Part shown: in pieces, positions 27,541 to 58,036 of the stretch | Numbering within the stretch: position 1 is the stretch's first letter | Layout of the letters: every line of letters starts with the position of its first letter | Assembly: GCF_006345805.1 (NCBI RefSeq) | Contig: NC_043021.1 | Location: 26,908,001-26,972,000 of the forward strand | Source of the DNA: Octopus sinensis | Lineage: Eukaryota | Direction: 5' to 3' | Length of the DNA stretch: 64,000 nucleotides | Notes under the pieces: generated by a model | Told to the model about the DNA's origin: nothing | Database searches by the model: none | Seen by the model: only the letters and a program-made list of their open reading frames with translations | Translations under genes and position numbers: made by a program

Positions 27541-29778
27541 TATGAGAAGCTGCTAAATAAGGAAAATGAATGGGATAAAGAGTCTGCCGAATGTCGACCC
27601 AACAGAGGGACCAGCTATCCGAGTTGACAGTTCCTTAGTAGTTAAGGCAATTAGTAGCATGAAGACAGGGAAAGCCCCAGGCCCATCAGGAATTACTGCA
27701 GAGATGCTTAAAATATCTGGTAGTGTCGGCTATAGCCTGGTCACCCGTTTAGTTAACCAGGTGATACACGAAGGAGTCATACCCAATGACTGGTGTAGCA
27801 GCATAATAGTCAACTGCTACAAAGGTAAGGGTGAAGCTTTAGATACAAATAATTACAGAGGTATCAAGCTGTTGGATCAGGCAATGGATGTTACGGAGAG
27901 GGTCATAGCCCAACTGATTAGGGAGAGAGTCAGCTTGGATAAGATGTAGTTTGGTTTCGTGCCAGGAAAAAGCACCACTGATGCCATATTTCTGGTGAGA
28001 CAGCTGCAGGAGAAATACCTAGCCAAGGATAAGCCCCTGTACCTGGCTTTTGTTGACATGGAGAAAGACTTTGACAGGGTCCCCCGATCCCTTATCTGTT
28101 GGTCAATGAGGAAACTAGGGATAGATGAATGGTTAGTGAGAGCTGTGAAAGCCATGTACAGAGACACTGTAAGGTGAGGGTTGGCAACGAGTACGCTGAA
28201 GAATTCCGGGTAGAGGTAGGTGTCCACCAAGGTTCAGTCCTCAGCCCCCTCCTATTTATCATAGTCCTCCAGGCAATAACGGAGGAATTCAAGACAGGAT
28301 GCCCTGGGAGCAACTCTATGCTGATGACCTTGCTCTAATTGCTGAGTCACTATCAGAACTGGAGAAGTTTCAGGTGTGGAAGCAAGGATTAGAATTGAAG
28401 GGCCTTAGAGTCAACCTAGCTAAAACCAAAGTCCTAATATCTAGGAAGGCAGGCAAATCACAAATGCCTTCAGGTAGATGGCCCTGCTCAATCTGTAGAA
28501 AAGGTGTAGGTAGAAACTATAAGATGCACCAAGTGTAAGCTATGGACACATTAGAGGTGCAGCAATGTCAAAGGAAGGCTAACTAGGAAGATGGTTTTCG
28601 TATGTGGCAGATGCTCTGGTGCAATAAACACTGGAAATGCGCAGAGACCAACTTCCGCCACATTCCAGGGAGAAAAACTAGAAGTAGTTGATAGCTTCCG
28701 TTATCTAGGTGACCAAGTCAGTAGCGGGGACGAGTGTGCTGAAAGTGTAACTGCTAGAGTAAGAATAGCCTGGGCAAAGTTCAGAGAGCTCCTACCTCTG
28801 CTGGTGACAAAAGGCCTCTCGCTCAGAATAAAAGGCAGACTGTATGATGCATGTGTACGAACAGCCATGCTACATGGCAGTGAAACATGGGCTGTGACTG
28901 CTGAGGATATGCGTAAGCTTGCAAGAAATGAAGCCAGTATGCTCCGATGGATGTGTAATGTCAGTGTTCATACTTGACAGAATGTAAGTACCTTGAGAGA
29001 AATGTTGGACCTAAGAAGCATCAGTTGTGGTGTGCAAGAGAGACGTTTGCGCTGGTATGGTCATGTGACAAGAATGGATGAAGATAGTTGTGTGAAAAAG
29101 TGCCACTTCCTAGCGGTTGAGGGAACCTGTGGAAGAGGTAGACCCAGGAAAACCTGGAACGAGGTGGTGAAGAACGACCTTCGAACTTTAGGTCTCACTG
29201 AGGAAATGACCAGAGACCGAGACCTTTGGAAGTATGCTGTGCGTGGGAAGACCCAGCAGGACAAGTGAGACCATAACCCATGGCCTCTACCTGGGACGTA
29301 GCCAGCCCACTTTGTGACACAAACCCTACTTGTGAAGACCTGTTGAGGCAAGTGAAAATCGAAATCTTTCAACATCAATGGAAATTGTAGCTGAGATACC
29401 AGTGCCGGTGGCATGTAAGAGAACCATCCGAACGTGGCCATTGTCAGCGCCGCCCCGACTGGCCTCCGTGCCGGTGGCACATAAAAAGCACCATCCAATT
29501 GTGCTGTTGCCAGCCTCGACTGGCCCCTGTGCCGGTGGCATGTAAAAAGCACCATCCGATCGTAGCCGTTTGCCAGCCTCGTCTGGCACCTGTGCAGGTG
29601 GCACATAAAATGCACCCACAACACTCTCGGAGTGGTTGGCGTTAGGAAGGGCATCCAGCTGTAGAAACACTGCCAGGTCAGACTGGGCCTGGCACAGCCT
29701 TCTGGCTTCCCAGACCCCTGTTGAACCGTCCAACCCATGCTAGCATGGAAAACGGACGTTAAACGATGATGATGATGA
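27541..29778 (+). mobile_element. RTE-clade LINE family 1, 5'-truncated and decayed (RT region + 3' UTR + (GAT)n tail)
   Basis: Split frames give KAPGPSG, NYRGIKLL, FVDMEKDFDRV, HQGSVLSPLLF, LYADDL, FRYLG and RRLRWYGHV. Stops and frameshifts present. 3' UTR tandem repeats and GATGATGAT tail. Confidence 0.95.
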
Positions 29779-50470: not shown

Positions 50471-51435
50471 ATTATACCTAACGATGTTATACGAAAGCGA
50501 AAATATGAGATCAATTGCAAAATCTGTTGACAATGAGGAGCCTGTTTGTGGATACCCAGCAGTCAAATGTCCCACGTAGCCCTTTCCAATATCTGGTGAT
50601 AAAAGGAAGCTTTTAAGTAGTTGCTCGTATTGCGAGAAATTGCAGGGAAATATCGCTCAAACCATGTCCTACAAGTGTTACAGAAAGGAAGCGTTTACCC
50701 CATTGTGACATCTTGTGACATCTGGAAGCATCTAGATGGACGCTCGATACGCTAAAAATAACGGCTACATGTACCTCAAAATCACACTATTTTACCTTAT
50801 TAATGGATTAAAAAGTGTTAACCATTGGATAATGCATTCATGTGTGTGTGTGTGTGTGTGTGTGTGCGTTATCTTTTACTTGTCTCAGTCACTAGACTGT
50901 GACCACGCTGGCGTACTGTCACGAAGGACTTTTTTATTCAAATGAAGCGACCCCAGTATTTCTTACTTTTTTTTTTTAAGTTGATACTTATTCTATCGGG
51001 TGCTTTTGCTGAACTGCTAAGTTACGGGGGACACACACTGGTTGTCAAGCGATGGTAAGGGACAGAGACACAAAGACACATCATCATTATCATCATCATC
51101 ATTTAACGTCTGTTTTCCATGCTGGCATGAGTTAGATGGTTTGACCGGAGCTGGTGAGCTGGAGAGCTGCACTAGGCTTCAGTCGTCTGTTTTGGTTCGG
51201 TTTCTACAGCCCTTCCTAATGCCAACAACATTACAGAGTGTGTCCTGCGTGTTTTTAAATGTGTCACCGGCATGGATACCTTTAACATGTTACTGGCATA
51301 ATGATAGGTCTCTTTCAGTTTCTATCTGCTAAATCCATTCACAAGGCTTTGGTCAGCTCAAGTTGAAGACACTTGCCCAAGATGCCACACAGTGAGATAG
51401 AACCCAGAACCATGTAGTTTGGAAGCAAGCTTCTT

Positions 51436-52862
51436 TATTTCATTAAATTTGCCATAAAGGCAATACACAGAGGGGACACTACAACACATGTGGGGACATA
51501 TAACAATTAAAAATAAAATATGATATAATGAATGAACATGAAAATGCACATGAAGAAAAAATTCAAATATGATAATATGAAGAGTGTGCCCCACACTGAG
51601 TAACACAACTCGCTGTCTCTGGGTCCTGAGTCCTTTTTCTCTTTTCGTCCAATCCTTTTCCCTTTTTCACTGACACTTAATGATACCATTCTCTCTGCCA
51701 TGCATTCATAACCTTTTTCACCGGGAGTGGGGTCTTCTAAATTTTGTGGTGTTTGTTCTTCCTTTTTCTTTTTTTCTTGAGAGGAAACGGGGTGGGTGGG
51801 TTTGGTGTATGTATGGGGAGGGTGGGTCTGAGGAGTCTTGGGTGGGATGGGGTTGGACTGGGGTGCCACATCATACTCAGTGTCTTTTCTTTTTTTCCTC
51901 TTTCTCCTATTGCGCTCTGCAATTTTCCATTCTTCCTCCTTTTTATCGTTTCCTCCGTCTATTTTGTCTTCCTCTCTTTTCTCTTCTGTCTCCGCAACTA
52001 TATCCTCAGCCGTAGTCCTTCGTAGAAGGCAGTGTGCTCTAATGTGGCCCCTCTGGCCACACTTGAAACAACGTGGCACTCCGCCCTCCACCCACACCCT
52101 CAGCATGACCTCCCCCAGCGTCACAGTCTCCGCCAAATCCTCAAGCTGTCCCTCCTCCATCTGAACAACCAACTCGAGCGTTCCTCCCCTCCACCCTCCC
52201 TCCTCGGCCTCCATGGCCTGGAGGACAGCCACCCTCTCCTTGCTTCCAACAAGGACAGCCGCCGCCACCCAAGCCACATCTACATCAGGCGGAACTCCTT
52301 CCACCCCCATCCTGGAGGTCCCTCCTCCAAGATACGTAGGTAGAAGGACCATTTCCTTCGTCTTCACCGCCCCGCTCGCCAGCCTCCCCGTGTCCGCCTC
52401 TGTTCCAAACTGGACCACCACCATCCCACATTGGCATTCTCCTGTCATGCACATTACTCCTTTGGACTCCTCCTTCACCGCCCTTTCTACCTTCTCCATT
52501 TCTATTTGGTCGACCCTCCCACTCCTCATCGAGCAAACCCTGCACATGACCGCTCTTCCTCTCATGCCATCCACTACTCTTTGTGGGGGTGACAATGTCA
52601 CGCTGCTGCCCACCTTCTGCACCACTCTTCCATGCTCCCTCATTCCTGATAAATCCACCTCCCCTCTCTTCACCTCCACAGCCCCTGCGAAACTCCTCAC
52701 TTTCCTCAAACACTCATCCATGCCTTCCACTGTTCTCAGCAGCTCCTCCTCTGAAGAAGACAGCTCAGACCCGCCAAGGTCCGAGTACACTGTCCCACCG
52801 CAGCAACAAAACCGACGTCCGACTCGCACACAAACGACAAACCAAATGCACTATGGGCAACC
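51436..52862 (-). mobile_element. ORF1-only non-autonomous non-LTR retroelement (HAL1-like, L1/Tx1-type ORF1) inserted in a SINE head
   Basis: Perfect 15-bp TSD GGAAGCAAGCTTCTT at 51421-51435 and 52863-52877. Host SINE-A continues on both sides. The 3' end reads ...AATGAAATAAA into the TSD. One long ORF, no RT or endonuclease. Confidence 0.85.
51507..52829 (-). CDS. gag-like ORF1 protein with CCHC zinc knuckle (first ATG at 52721; the hydrophobic C-terminus may be read-through into the 3' UTR)
   Basis: Uninterrupted 440-codon frame with CFKCGQRGHIRAHC (CX2CX4HX4C), preceded by VEGVPP...V...LRVWVEG typical of L1/Tx1 ORF1, and followed by a W-K...RRKRKKRK basic stretch. Confidence 0.8.
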   Translation of the reverse strand: MRVGRRFCCCGGTVYSDLGGSELSSSEEELLRTVEGMDECLRKVRSFAGAVEVKRGEVDLSGMREHGRVVQKVGSSVTLSPPQRVVDGMRGRAVMCRVCSMRSGRVDQIEMEKVERAVKEESKGVMCMTGECQCGMVVVQFGTEADTGRLASGAVKTKEMVLLPTYLGGGTSRMGVEGVPPDVDVAWVAAAVLVGSKERVAVLQAMEAEEGGWRGGTLELVVQMEEGQLEDLAETVTLGEVMLRVWVEGGVPRCFKCGQRGHIRAHCLLRRTTAEDIVAETEEKREEDKIDGGNDKKEEEWKIAERNRRKRKKRKDTEYDVAPQSNPIPPKTPQTHPPHTYTKPTHPVSSQEKKKKEEQTPQNLEDPTPGEKGYECMAERMVSLSVSEKGKRIGRKEKKDSGPRDSELCYSVWGTLFILSYLNFFFMCIFMFIHYIIFYF

Positions 52863-53176
52863 GGAAGCAAGCTTCTTACCACACAGCCACGCATGCACCT
52901 TCCTTCAGGTATAGTGAAACTAAAGAGCTGCTGTTGGAAATCAATATACATATGCTTCAGAATAAAGTGAGTACAGAGTGCAATATTAACTGAATGACAA
53001 GGGAATATGGATTATGTAACCAACATTATTAGCTTACAGTGTTTCTGCTAAAAGATGTAGCACATTCAGAGCTGAATGCTTGTTGTGCATCACCTCAGGC
53101 CCTCTAAAATGAAGTACACTGCATCTAACAGCAGAAACAAATGTAAGCTACTGTAGTTTATTATGTAATTCCTGTT

Positions 53177-53391
53177 GAAGGCAGCAATCTGGCAGAATCG
53201 TTAGCATGCTGGACGAAATGCTTAGTGGTATTTTGCTCATCACTCCATTCTGAGTTCAAATTCCACTGAGGTTGACTTTGCCTTTCATCCTTTCAGGTTT
53301 GATAAAATATGTACCAGTCGAGCACTGGGGTCGATGTAATAAACTTATCCCCACTTCTCCCAGGCTTCCCTTGTGGCAAAAATCTGAAATA
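53177..53391 (+). mobile_element. SINE family B copy with 17-bp TSD
   Basis: ATTATGTAATTCCTGTT at 53160-53176 and 53392-53408. Head TGGCAGAATCG...GAGTTCAAATTCC (A/B boxes). Other copies at 680-875, 14935-15140, 16488-16700, 18000-18525, 20300-20510, 35472-35700, 45298-45492, 55315-56040. Confidence 0.88.
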
Positions 53392-53417
53392 ATTATGTAA
53401 TTCCTGTTTCCTTGCAA

Positions 53418-56719: not shown

Positions 56720-58036
56720 CATCATCATCATCATCATCATTTAGCGTCCGCTTTCCATGCTAGCATGGGCTGGACGGTTCAACTGGGGTCTGTGAAGCTG
56801 GAAGGCTTCGTCAGGCCCAGTCAGATCTGGCAGTGTTTCTACGGCTGGATGCCCTTCCTAACGCCAACCACTCCGTGAGTGTAGTGGGTGTTTTTTACGT
56901 GCCACCTGCACAGGTGCCAGACAGAGCTGGCAAATGGCCACGAACGGATGGTGCTTTTACGTGTCACCGGCATTGGGCCAGGCGATGCTGGCAACGGACA
57001 CGAACGGATGGTGCTTTTACGTGCCACCGACACGGGGCCAGACAGAGCTGGCAAACGGCCACGAACGGACGGTGCTTTTACGTGTCACCGGCACGGGGGC
57101 CAGGCGAGGCTGGCAACAGACACGAACGGATGGTGCTTTTACGTGCCACCGACATGGGGGCCAGACAGAGCTGGCAAACGGCCACGAACGGACGGTGCTT
57201 TTACGTGTCACCGGCACGGGGGCCAGGCGAGGCTGGCAACAGACACGAATGGATGGTGCTTTTACATGCCACCGACACGGGGGCCAGACAGAGCTGGCAA
57301 ACGGCCACGAGCGAATGGTGCTGTTACGTATCACCGACACGGGTGCCAGACGAGGCTGGCAGTGGACATGAACGGATGGTTCACTTAACCCCTGCTTTCT
57401 GATATATGATTTATGATTTGATTTTGATTGTTCTCACTGGTCTTGCCGGGTCTTCTGACGCACAGCATACTTCCATAGGTCTCGGTCTCTGGTCATTTCC
57501 TTGGTGAGACCTAGAGTTTGAAGGTCGTGCTTCACCACCTCGACCCAGGTTTTCCTGGGTCTACCTCTTCCGCAGGTCCCCTCAACTGCCAGGGTGTGGC
57601 ACTTTTTCACACACCTATCTTCATCCATTCTCACCACATGACCATACCAGCGCAATCGTCTCTCTTGCACACAACATCTGATGCCTCTTAGGTCCAACTT
57701 TTCTCTCAAGGTACTTACACTCTGTCGACTATAAACACTGACATTACACATCCAACGGAGCATACTAGCTTCATTTCTCGCGAGCTTACGCAAATCCTCA
57801 GCAGTCACAGCCCAAGTTTCACTACCATGTAGCATGGCTGTACGTACACATGCATCATACAGTCTGCCTTTTACTCTGAGCGAGAGGCCTTTTGTCACCA
57901 GCAGGGGTAAGAGCTCTCTAAACTTTGCCCAGGCTATTCTTACTCTAGCAGTTACACTTTCAGCACACCCGCCCCCGCTACTGACTTGGTCACCTAGGTA
58001 GCGGAAGCTATCAACTACTTCTAGTTTTTCTCCCTG
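56720..58036 (-). mobile_element. RTE-clade LINE family 1, 5'-truncated copy with expanded 3'-UTR tandem array
   Basis: Open frame 57434-58036 (QGEKLEVVDSFRYLG...KYAVRQKTRQDQ) nearly identical to 28665-29268. (CAT)n tail at 56720. Confidence 0.95.

What the first reader, a model, noticed from the sequence alone, without database searches (positions are those of the whole stretch)
51421..52877. ORF1-only retroelement with intact gag-like ORF inserted inside the tRNA-derived head of a SINE (possible SINE-targeting half-LINE system)
Seen: a 1427-bp unit bounded by a perfect 15-bp TSD, a single 440-codon open frame with a CCHC knuckle, no RT or endonuclease, and a 3' end with a small TTGCC-TTTAT-GGCAA hairpin and AATAAA. 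It lies in the same orientation as the host SINE-A, between the A-box and B-box, so it retrotransposed as an ORF1-only unit rather than arising as an ordinary 5'-truncated LINE (those keep ORF2 ends). Established: HAL1 elements are ORF1-only L1 derivatives, and Tx1-clade LINEs are often sequence-specific (U2 snRNA, 5S rDNA, tRNA arrays, other transposons). Inference: a non-autonomous Tx1-type family supplies its own ORF1p, borrows ORF2p in trans, and uses an extremely abundant SINE as a safe-harbour target while disabling the SINE's Pol III promoter.
Basis: partly seen in the sequence, partly recalled or inferred. Interest (0 to 1): 0.8.

Follow-up and report, generated by a model that had tools for sequence, protein, structure and literature searches.

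The report
SINE-nesting half-LINE with RNA-editing scar
This is one copy of a family of short jumping genes that carry only an RNA-binding protein gene and insert at one fixed spot inside a very common small repeat, likely by borrowing the enzymes of a full-length partner that inserts at the same spot; this particular copy also carries about 100 one-strand A-to-G changes, likely a permanent DNA record of RNA editing.

Summary
Confirmed and extended. The 1427-bp unit is one of at least 27 near-full-length copies; all 29 fetched copies that reach the 3' end stop at the same SINE-head site. A 5.48-kb APE-RT element hits the same site (36 of 36 copies), sits in tandem with the short unit, and shares only its last 44 nt; ORF1 proteins are 31% identical. 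ORF1 (two predicted RRM-like domains plus CCHC) evolved under purifying selection between subfamilies (dN/dS 0.16-0.23). So this is an old ORF1-only lineage, not a deletion of its partner; relatives with another tail use other targets, one a second SINE.

Correction: the window copy is not intact. It lacks the family's ATG, lost the family's stop by a 32-nt deletion, and carries 99 A-to-G changes at 486 A sites (sisters 2-7 each), sense strand only, with G depleted upstream: an ADAR-like signature. The stretch is also in DNA runs of two other organism labels, and 2 of 84 units of a related family show the same. Targeting is strong, not absolute (18 of 30 tail-only matches). Tx1-clade membership was not tested against named references; 'safe harbour' and promoter silencing are unshown.

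The parts
51436..52862 (-). ORF1-only non-LTR retroelement, full-length copy (1427 bp)
52863..52877 (-). 5' copy of the target-site duplication
51421..51435 (-). 3' copy of the target-site duplication
51507..52850 (-). open frame, 447 aa stop to stop; damaged ORF1 (52 residues changed by A-to-G alone in the first 260 codons)
52788..52790 (-). family start position; GTG here, ATG in 8 of 8 sisters
52323..52586 (-). first predicted RRM-like domain (approximate; mapped from the model of sister L002)
   Evidence: Z 9.4, rmsd 2.8, 80 aligned
52077..52322 (-). second predicted RRM-like/ferredoxin-like domain (approximate, weaker support)
52029..52070 (-). CCHC zinc knuckle
52051..52858 (-). A-to-G hypermutated zone: 92 of the 99 A-to-G changes
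51587..51588 (-). junction of a 32-nt deletion that removed the family's stop codon
51449..51463 (-). 3' hairpin, part of the 44-nt tail shared with the autonomous partner
51434..51439 (-). AATAAA straddling the element/target junction
52878..52899 (-). 5' piece of the host SINE head with A-box-like motif (52879-52889)
51305..51420 (-). rest of the host SINE with a degenerate B-box-like motif (51394-51404); far end approximate

Best explanation
This is a dead copy of a multicopy ORF1-only non-LTR retroelement family that inserts at one fixed site in the head of an abundant SINE, likely mobilised in trans by a 5.48-kb endonuclease/reverse-transcriptase element that uses the same site and shares only the last 44 nt, and this copy was likely reverse-transcribed from an ADAR-hyperedited RNA. 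Shown: copy number, common site, tandem arrays, partner with APE-RT-zf-RVT at the same site, shared tail with a 4-bp covarying stem, purifying selection on ORF1, separate ancestry of the two ORF1s, and one-strand A-to-G excess with upstream-G depletion. Inferred mechanism: a source copy is transcribed, probably by Pol II (a run of four T near the 5' end would stop Pol III); its ORF1p packages its own RNA; the partner's ORF2p recognises the tail, nicks the SINE site and primes reverse transcription; each insertion duplicates the site, so later elements of several families stack into arrays. In this case the RNA was first paired over its 5' 810 nt, probably with an antisense RNA, and edited; inosines were copied as G, which destroyed the start codon and fixed the edits in the germline.
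For: 27 of 53 matches span nearly the whole unit. 29 of 29 fetched copies that reach the 3' end abut the site within 0-3 mismatches in 13 nt, two after a short spacer; these were chosen by likeness to the element alone. Chance per insertion is about 1e-4 even with a tenfold margin on 61,294 empty sites. 1330 exact junctions genome-wide, control 0. Partner: 36 of 36 copies on the site; APE, RT and zf-RVT; best solved relative L1 ORF2p, E 2e-63; directly in tandem with the short unit in L109 and with a related short unit in L111; last 44 nt 84% identical, nothing else at DNA level, ORF1 31%. Stem: 4 cells with change on both sides, 1 of 500 shuffles as high. dN/dS 0.16-0.23 between three subfamilies over codons 1-260, against 0.46-0.79 for changes private to copies. 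AU test rejects a clade of these ORF1s with the partner's, p 6e-5. Editing: 99 of 486 A against 34 of 3908 in 8 sisters, p 3e-69; T-to-C 8 of 302; upstream base T 27/70, A 56/177, C 8/82, G 7/146. Edited stretch in DNA contigs of organisms B and C with 2 and 3 differences over 775 and 428 nt. Same pattern in 2 of 84 units of a related family (38 and 68 A-to-G, 1 and 0 other changes; upstream G 3/144 in the flagged units).
Against: No biochemical test of cleavage, tail binding or trans-mobilisation. Specificity is not absolute: with a tail-only pattern 18 of 30 fetched loci (of 34 matches) abut the site, one more after a spacer; by eye 10 of 11 for this family's UTR and 8 of 17 for a sister family. 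Downstream base preference is mildly G (40/143 against A 28/177), whereas PMC5625713 reports A preferred downstream in invertebrates. No antisense or inverted partner RNA was found. The AU group was named after a first tree had been seen. dN/dS used simple counting without transition correction, and synonymous divergence is far higher in the 5' core than in the tail, which suggests mosaic ancestry. The two edited relatives lie in one array, so they are not fully independent.
Confidence: 0.85

Rival explanations
1. The unit spread passively as part of a composite SINE (head + insert + body) or by segmental duplication, not by repeated targeted insertion.
For: L112 and L113 begin with the same two families in the same order, so some co-mobilisation of neighbours may occur.
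Against: Closely related copies sit in different SINE variants with left and right repeats matching locally; 16 of 29 copies are followed by something other than the SINE body, mostly other units, and arrays differ in order; 5'-truncated copies end at the same site; a different, autonomous family hits the same site.
Confidence: 0.04
2. The short unit is a recent internal deletion of the autonomous partner.
For: Shared tail and homologous ORF1.
Against: No DNA similarity outside the last 44 nt; ORF1 31% identical; AU p 6e-5; none of the loci of this ORF1 lineage examined had ORF2 inside the unit.
Confidence: 0.04
3. The real target is a tRNA gene or a short motif, and the SINE is hit only because it resembles it.
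For: A related family sits at a U1 snRNA gene; off-target insertions often begin with a partial motif; the head resembles tRNA.
Against: 33 of 36 partner copies continue into the SINE body; none of 27 genomic tRNA sequences shows the site, but they cover only six amino-acid types. This rival concerns the origin of the preference more than its present use.
Confidence: 0.15
4. The A-to-G excess comes from reverse-transcriptase error, DNA-level deamination after insertion, or an assembly artefact, not from ADAR.
For: No duplex partner identified; edited A are not enriched in the RNA's own predicted stems (0.35 against 0.36, p 0.76); downstream preference differs from the invertebrate pattern in PMC5625713.
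Against: One strand only (T-to-C 8 of 302; no T-to-C cluster in 101 unit pieces); upstream-G depletion matches the ADAR signature (PMC2873906, PMC5625713); A after A is edited too, so it is not a TpA rule; present in independent DNA runs.
Confidence: 0.1
5. The window copy is a domesticated host gene, its long open frame kept by selection.
For: Open 447-aa frame; shared by three organism labels; a 261-nt contig without differences in a run only guessed to be RNA.
Against: Start codon lost; frame lengthened by a deletion; dN/dS 0.60 like neutral copies; A-to-G changes cannot create stops, so the frame stays open without selection; organism C has a 12-nt deletion in it.
Confidence: 0.03

Closest known systems
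HAL1 (half-L1) elements of mammals (PMC5753468, PMC3627910 passages; the original paper PMC2923044 was not held)
   Same: Non-autonomous, encodes ORF1p only, coding capacity kept over time, inferred to need ORF2p in trans.
   Different: Here the partner is a target-specific L1/Tx1-type element in an octopus-like genome; ORF1p is RRM-RRM-CCHC; there is no poly(A) tail but a shared 44-nt structured tail; insertion is at one fixed site; the ORF1 lineage is not derived from its present partner.
Sequence-specific Tx1-clade LINEs: Tx1, Keno, Kibi, Koshi, Tx1-Mar (PMC4494074 passages and section 15)
   Same: APE-RT element with fixed target in a multicopy sequence, tandem insertions sandwiching a duplication; a relative here sits at a U1 snRNA gene.
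   Different: Targets named in the passages read are snRNA and 5S genes, microsatellites, satellites, DNA transposons and LTR elements; none is a SINE head. No ORF1-only rider is described there.
SINEU-3 / Tx1-Mar pair in crocodilians (PMC4494074)
   Same: Non-autonomous element shares its partner's target, another transposon, in about 90% of copies.
   Different: SINEU is non-coding and snRNA-derived; here the rider encodes ORF1p and the target is itself a SINE.
ADAR hyper-edited repeat RNAs (PMC5625713, PMC2873906 passages) and APOBEC-edited retroelements fixed in genomes (PMC2873906)
   Same: Clustered one-type changes on one strand with upstream-G depletion; octopus has very high hyper-editing (PMC5625713 Table 1).
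   Different: Those papers find A-to-G clusters in RNA and G-to-A clusters in DNA; here A-to-G clusters are in genomic DNA copies.

Membership tests
HAL1-like ORF1-only retroelement (works like) | Multicopy full-length unit with ORF1 and no ORF2 | tested here: met
HAL1-like ORF1-only retroelement (works like) | ORF1 kept by purifying selection | tested here: met
   dN/dS 0.16-0.23
HAL1-like ORF1-only retroelement (works like) | Mobilised in trans by the partner's ORF2p | not testable with these tools
   inferred from shared tail and site
HAL1 proper (mammalian) | Derived from mammalian L1, with L1-type ORF1p | tested here: not met
   ORF1p has a CCHC knuckle and no Pfam L1 ORF1 family match in 20 members; nearest homologues are in this genome and one named octopus protein
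Tx1 clade (partner) | ORF2 with APE, RT and C-terminal zinc domain, L1-group | tested here: met
Tx1 clade (partner) | Sequence-specific insertion into a multicopy target | tested here: met
   36 of 36; relative at U1
Tx1 clade (partner) | RT groups with named Tx1 elements in a tree | tested here: inconclusive
   No named Tx1 reference came; the tree holds only unnamed outside rows
tRNA-derived SINE (host) | tRNA-like head with A and B boxes | tested here: inconclusive
   colinear alignment above most shuffles; no Rfam tRNA match
Octopus OR1/OR2/OK SINE families (host) | Sequence match to the published family | not testable with these tools
   No SINE library; OR2 is named as an octopus CORE-SINE in PMC4758252; the resemblance is recalled only
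ADAR hyper-editing footprint | Clustered A-to-G on the RNA strand only | tested here: met
ADAR hyper-editing footprint | G depleted upstream of edited A | tested here: met
   7/146, p 6e-14 for T/A against C/G
ADAR hyper-editing footprint | A long duplex covering the edited zone | tested here: inconclusive
   own fold does not explain the sites; no antisense RNA data

The most novel reading that the evidence does not exclude
The genome holds nested parasite guilds: target-specific LINE families that each use a SINE head or small-RNA gene as landing site, ridden by ancient ORF1-only lineages that attach to different LINE partners through a 44-nt tail; the host attacks the riders' RNA by antisense pairing and ADAR editing, and edited RNAs are written back into the germline at a few percent of insertions, giving a datable fossil record of germline A-to-I editing in octopus.
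Probability: 0.4. Interest if true: 0.88.

Novelty: new variant of a known kind. Interest (0 to 1): 0.76.

Why it matters
It extends the half-LINE strategy from mammalian L1 to a target-specific invertebrate LINE group and names a SINE head as a fixed target, which ten literature searches did not show. A 44-nt tail shared by unrelated riders and the partner gives a minimal, testable recognition signal, and selection on a rider's own ORF1 bears on why ORF1p acts in cis. The hyper-edited copies are direct evidence that A-to-I edits can become heritable DNA changes in an animal group known for heavy editing, and they show which part of the RNA was double-stranded in germ cells. The family may already be catalogued in Repbase or Dfam, which could not be searched.

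Tried and rejected
ARAGORN found no tRNA in the window; Rfam gave no tRNA match for the SINE head. The 30 best zf-RVT loci were other families, not the partner; the partner came from junction loci. Intramolecular folding as the editing substrate: rejected, although the 5' region folds better than shuffles (12 shuffles). Editing as a driver of subfamily divergence: synonymous A/G changes not significantly above C/T (p 0.10-0.70). Hyper-editing in the partner: 0 of 36 (3' 3.6 kb) and 0 of 39 (5' part), but these copies were chosen as top matches, which biases against edited ones. In one search the script's label for autonomous rows failed; labels were set by hand; the window's own ORF1 was left out. 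No listed sequencing run is on record as RNA, so nothing is claimed on expression; joints come from other SINE copies and say nothing on empty alleles. Homolog searches gave 2 and 21 proteins, none named Tx1 (only 8000 candidates scored). The Atlas gave a ZCCHC3-like cluster at 0.89, a lead only. No L1 ORF1p chain appeared among the fold matches listed. Literature searches (Tx1/HAL1/SINE target; ADAR-edited genomic copies) showed no listing that describes either phenomenon; subscription papers, Repbase Reports and supplements were not seen. Earlier scan findings: none by sequence or by the Tx1 words.

Full report
Observation. The unit lies on the minus strand at 51436-52862 between two identical 15-mers. 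It holds one 447-aa stop-to-stop frame with a CCHC knuckle and no RT or endonuclease match. It interrupts a SINE head in the same orientation. The AATAAA straddles the junction: two of its bases belong to the target. The only named homologue of ORF1 is an octopus protein, so the host is probably an octopus.

Family and target. A search of the own genome gave 976 candidates, 40 scored, 53 matches; 27 span nearly the whole unit. Of 30 fetched loci, 29 reach the 3' end and all 29 abut the same site, two after a short spacer; L012 is cut at both ends. Upstream, of 27 copies with a 5' end, the script called 18 SINE head, 5 tail of another unit and 4 other; downstream 13 of 29 continue into the SINE body and 16 do not, most of them starting another unit. 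The exact junction occurs 1330 times, control 0, and the exact empty site 61,294 times. A tail-only pattern is the harder test: 18 of 30 fetched loci (34 matches) abut the site, one more after a spacer; by eye 10 of 11 with this family's UTR and 8 of 17 of a sister family. The preference is therefore strong but not absolute.

Partner. Five of 30 junction loci carried ORF2 sequence upstream. L109 shows SINE head, the short unit, a 5478-nt element, then the SINE body. Its ORF2 has APE, RT and zf-RVT and is closest to L1 ORF2p among solved structures. All 36 copies examined end at the site and 33 continue into the SINE body; they were the top matches plus six fetched. The short unit shares only the last 44 nt (84%) and a 31% identical ORF1. 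Across 28 distinct tails a 4-bp stem is kept with compensatory changes; the fifth pair is not. In an RT tree the site-using family is one clade among 18 related RTs of this genome; one relative sits at a U1 snRNA gene, as expected of Tx1-type elements (PMC4494074, passages and section 15 read). No named Tx1 reference was available, so clade membership is likely but untested.

ORF1. A model from a 20-sequence alignment (pLDDT 81.8) has an N-terminal helix, two small alpha/beta domains and the knuckle; the best matches are tandem-RRM proteins and the first domain fits RRMs at Z 9.4. Between three subfamilies dN/dS is 0.16-0.23 over the core, against 0.46-0.79 for changes private to copies: source elements needed their ORF1. 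The ORF1 tree puts this lineage together with ORF1-only families that have a different tail (99 SH-aLRT), and rejects a clade with the partner's ORF1 (p 6e-5; group named). Those relatives form young 1.75-kb arrays, share their tail with other autonomous elements and in L120, L197, L204 and L207 sit in a second SINE's head. A second, more distant ORF1-only lineage also uses the first site. Either the lineage changed partners by replacing its tail or it co-diverged with them; the data do not decide.

The window copy. It is 86-89% identical to sisters that are 93-96% identical to each other. The excess is A-to-G on the sense strand: 99 of 486 A sites against 2-7 in each of 8 sisters, other changes at near-normal levels (p 3e-69). 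92 fall in nt 1-812. Upstream base: T 0.39, A 0.32, C 0.10, G 0.05; downstream G 0.28, T 0.22, C 0.18, A 0.16. Upstream-G depletion is the ADAR signature (PMC2873906 and PMC5625713, passages read); the latter reports A preferred downstream in invertebrates, which this copy does not show. The start codon is GTG where all 8 sisters have ATG, 52 residues in the first 260 codons changed by A-to-G alone, and a 32-nt deletion removed the stop. Since A-to-G cannot create a stop, the open frame is not evidence of function. The stretch is in DNA contigs of organisms B and C, so it is not an assembly error and predates their split or is shared among them. None of the 14 copies in the two other subfamily groups tested shows the pattern. 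In the related 1.75-kb family 2 of 84 units covering the zone are hyper-edited (38 and 68 A-to-G; 1 and 0 other changes), both in one array and over a similar 5' zone; a third has 8 A-to-G in 22 nt; no T-to-C cluster occurs in 101 unit pieces. Edited A are not enriched in predicted stems, so the duplex was probably formed with an antisense RNA (inference).

Mechanism. Shown: shared site, shared tail, selection on ORF1, independent ORF1 ancestry, the editing signature. Inferred from established target-primed reverse transcription (PMC3747384, passages): partner ORF2p binds the tail, nicks the site and copies the RNA; the duplication renews the site and arrays grow. The junction-spanning AATAAA suggests transcripts end inside the target and may pair with the nicked strand; untested. 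With at most a few percent of sites filled, an effect on the SINE family is unlikely; loss of activity of the single interrupted copy is plausible but untested.

Novelty. ORF1-only elements are known as mammalian HAL1 (PMC5753468, PMC3627910, passages; PMC2923044 not held). Target-specific Tx1 families are known, with targets including other transposons. Searches listed no paper on a SINE-head target or a Tx1-type ORF1-only rider, and searches none on ADAR-edited retrotransposon copies fixed in genomes; I saw listings only for most hits, and subscription journals, Repbase and supplements were not seen. Two unchecked notes of this scan report similar A-to-G L1 copies in other genomes. PMC4758252 and PMC9004415 (passages) added only the names of octopus SINEs and nothing relevant, respectively. 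Verdict: a new variant of a known kind, with an unexpected second finding; interest 0.76.

Noticed in passing
L226:6347-6522: A related autonomous element ends directly at the 5' end of a U1 snRNA gene (Rfam 125 bits).
   Followed up: partly
L197:2692-4424 and L119:6435-8167 (G000:C5:48433434-48440423): Two A-to-G hypermutated units in one tandem array of a related ORF1-only family; 25 sites shared, neither set nested in the other.
   Followed up: yes
window 53189-53400; L227:7270-7360; L020 5' flank: A second SINE family whose 3' tail resembles the tails of these LINE families; it is also the target of the second guild, so it may be both rider and target.
   Followed up: partly
L212, L222, L223, L224, L225, L215, L228, L211, L219 3' flanks: Other related autonomous families each show a repeated, family-specific 3' flank; no Rfam match at the gathering score for those scanned. 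Their targets are unidentified.
   Followed up: no
L005 element nt 521-571, 590-656, 774-843: Strong local hairpins inside the ORF1 coding region (window z -6.5 in L005, -6.7 in L007).
   Followed up: no
L106, L113, L130: Arrays of three to six units of several different families stacked at one SINE site; L112 and L113 begin with the same two families in the same order.
   Followed up: partly
5' ends of units in L001-L030: Units begin with CTTCCGG or GCGCATGCG, which resemble ETS and NRF1 promoter motifs (labels recalled, not tested).
   Followed up: no
family alignment, nt 1-600 against 600-1460: Subfamilies differ far more in the first 600 nt than in the rest, which suggests recombination or 5' replacement.
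   Followed up: partly
window 28666-29273 and 57429-58036: A 608-nt inverted pair at 92%, probably two copies of another interspersed repeat.
   Followed up: no
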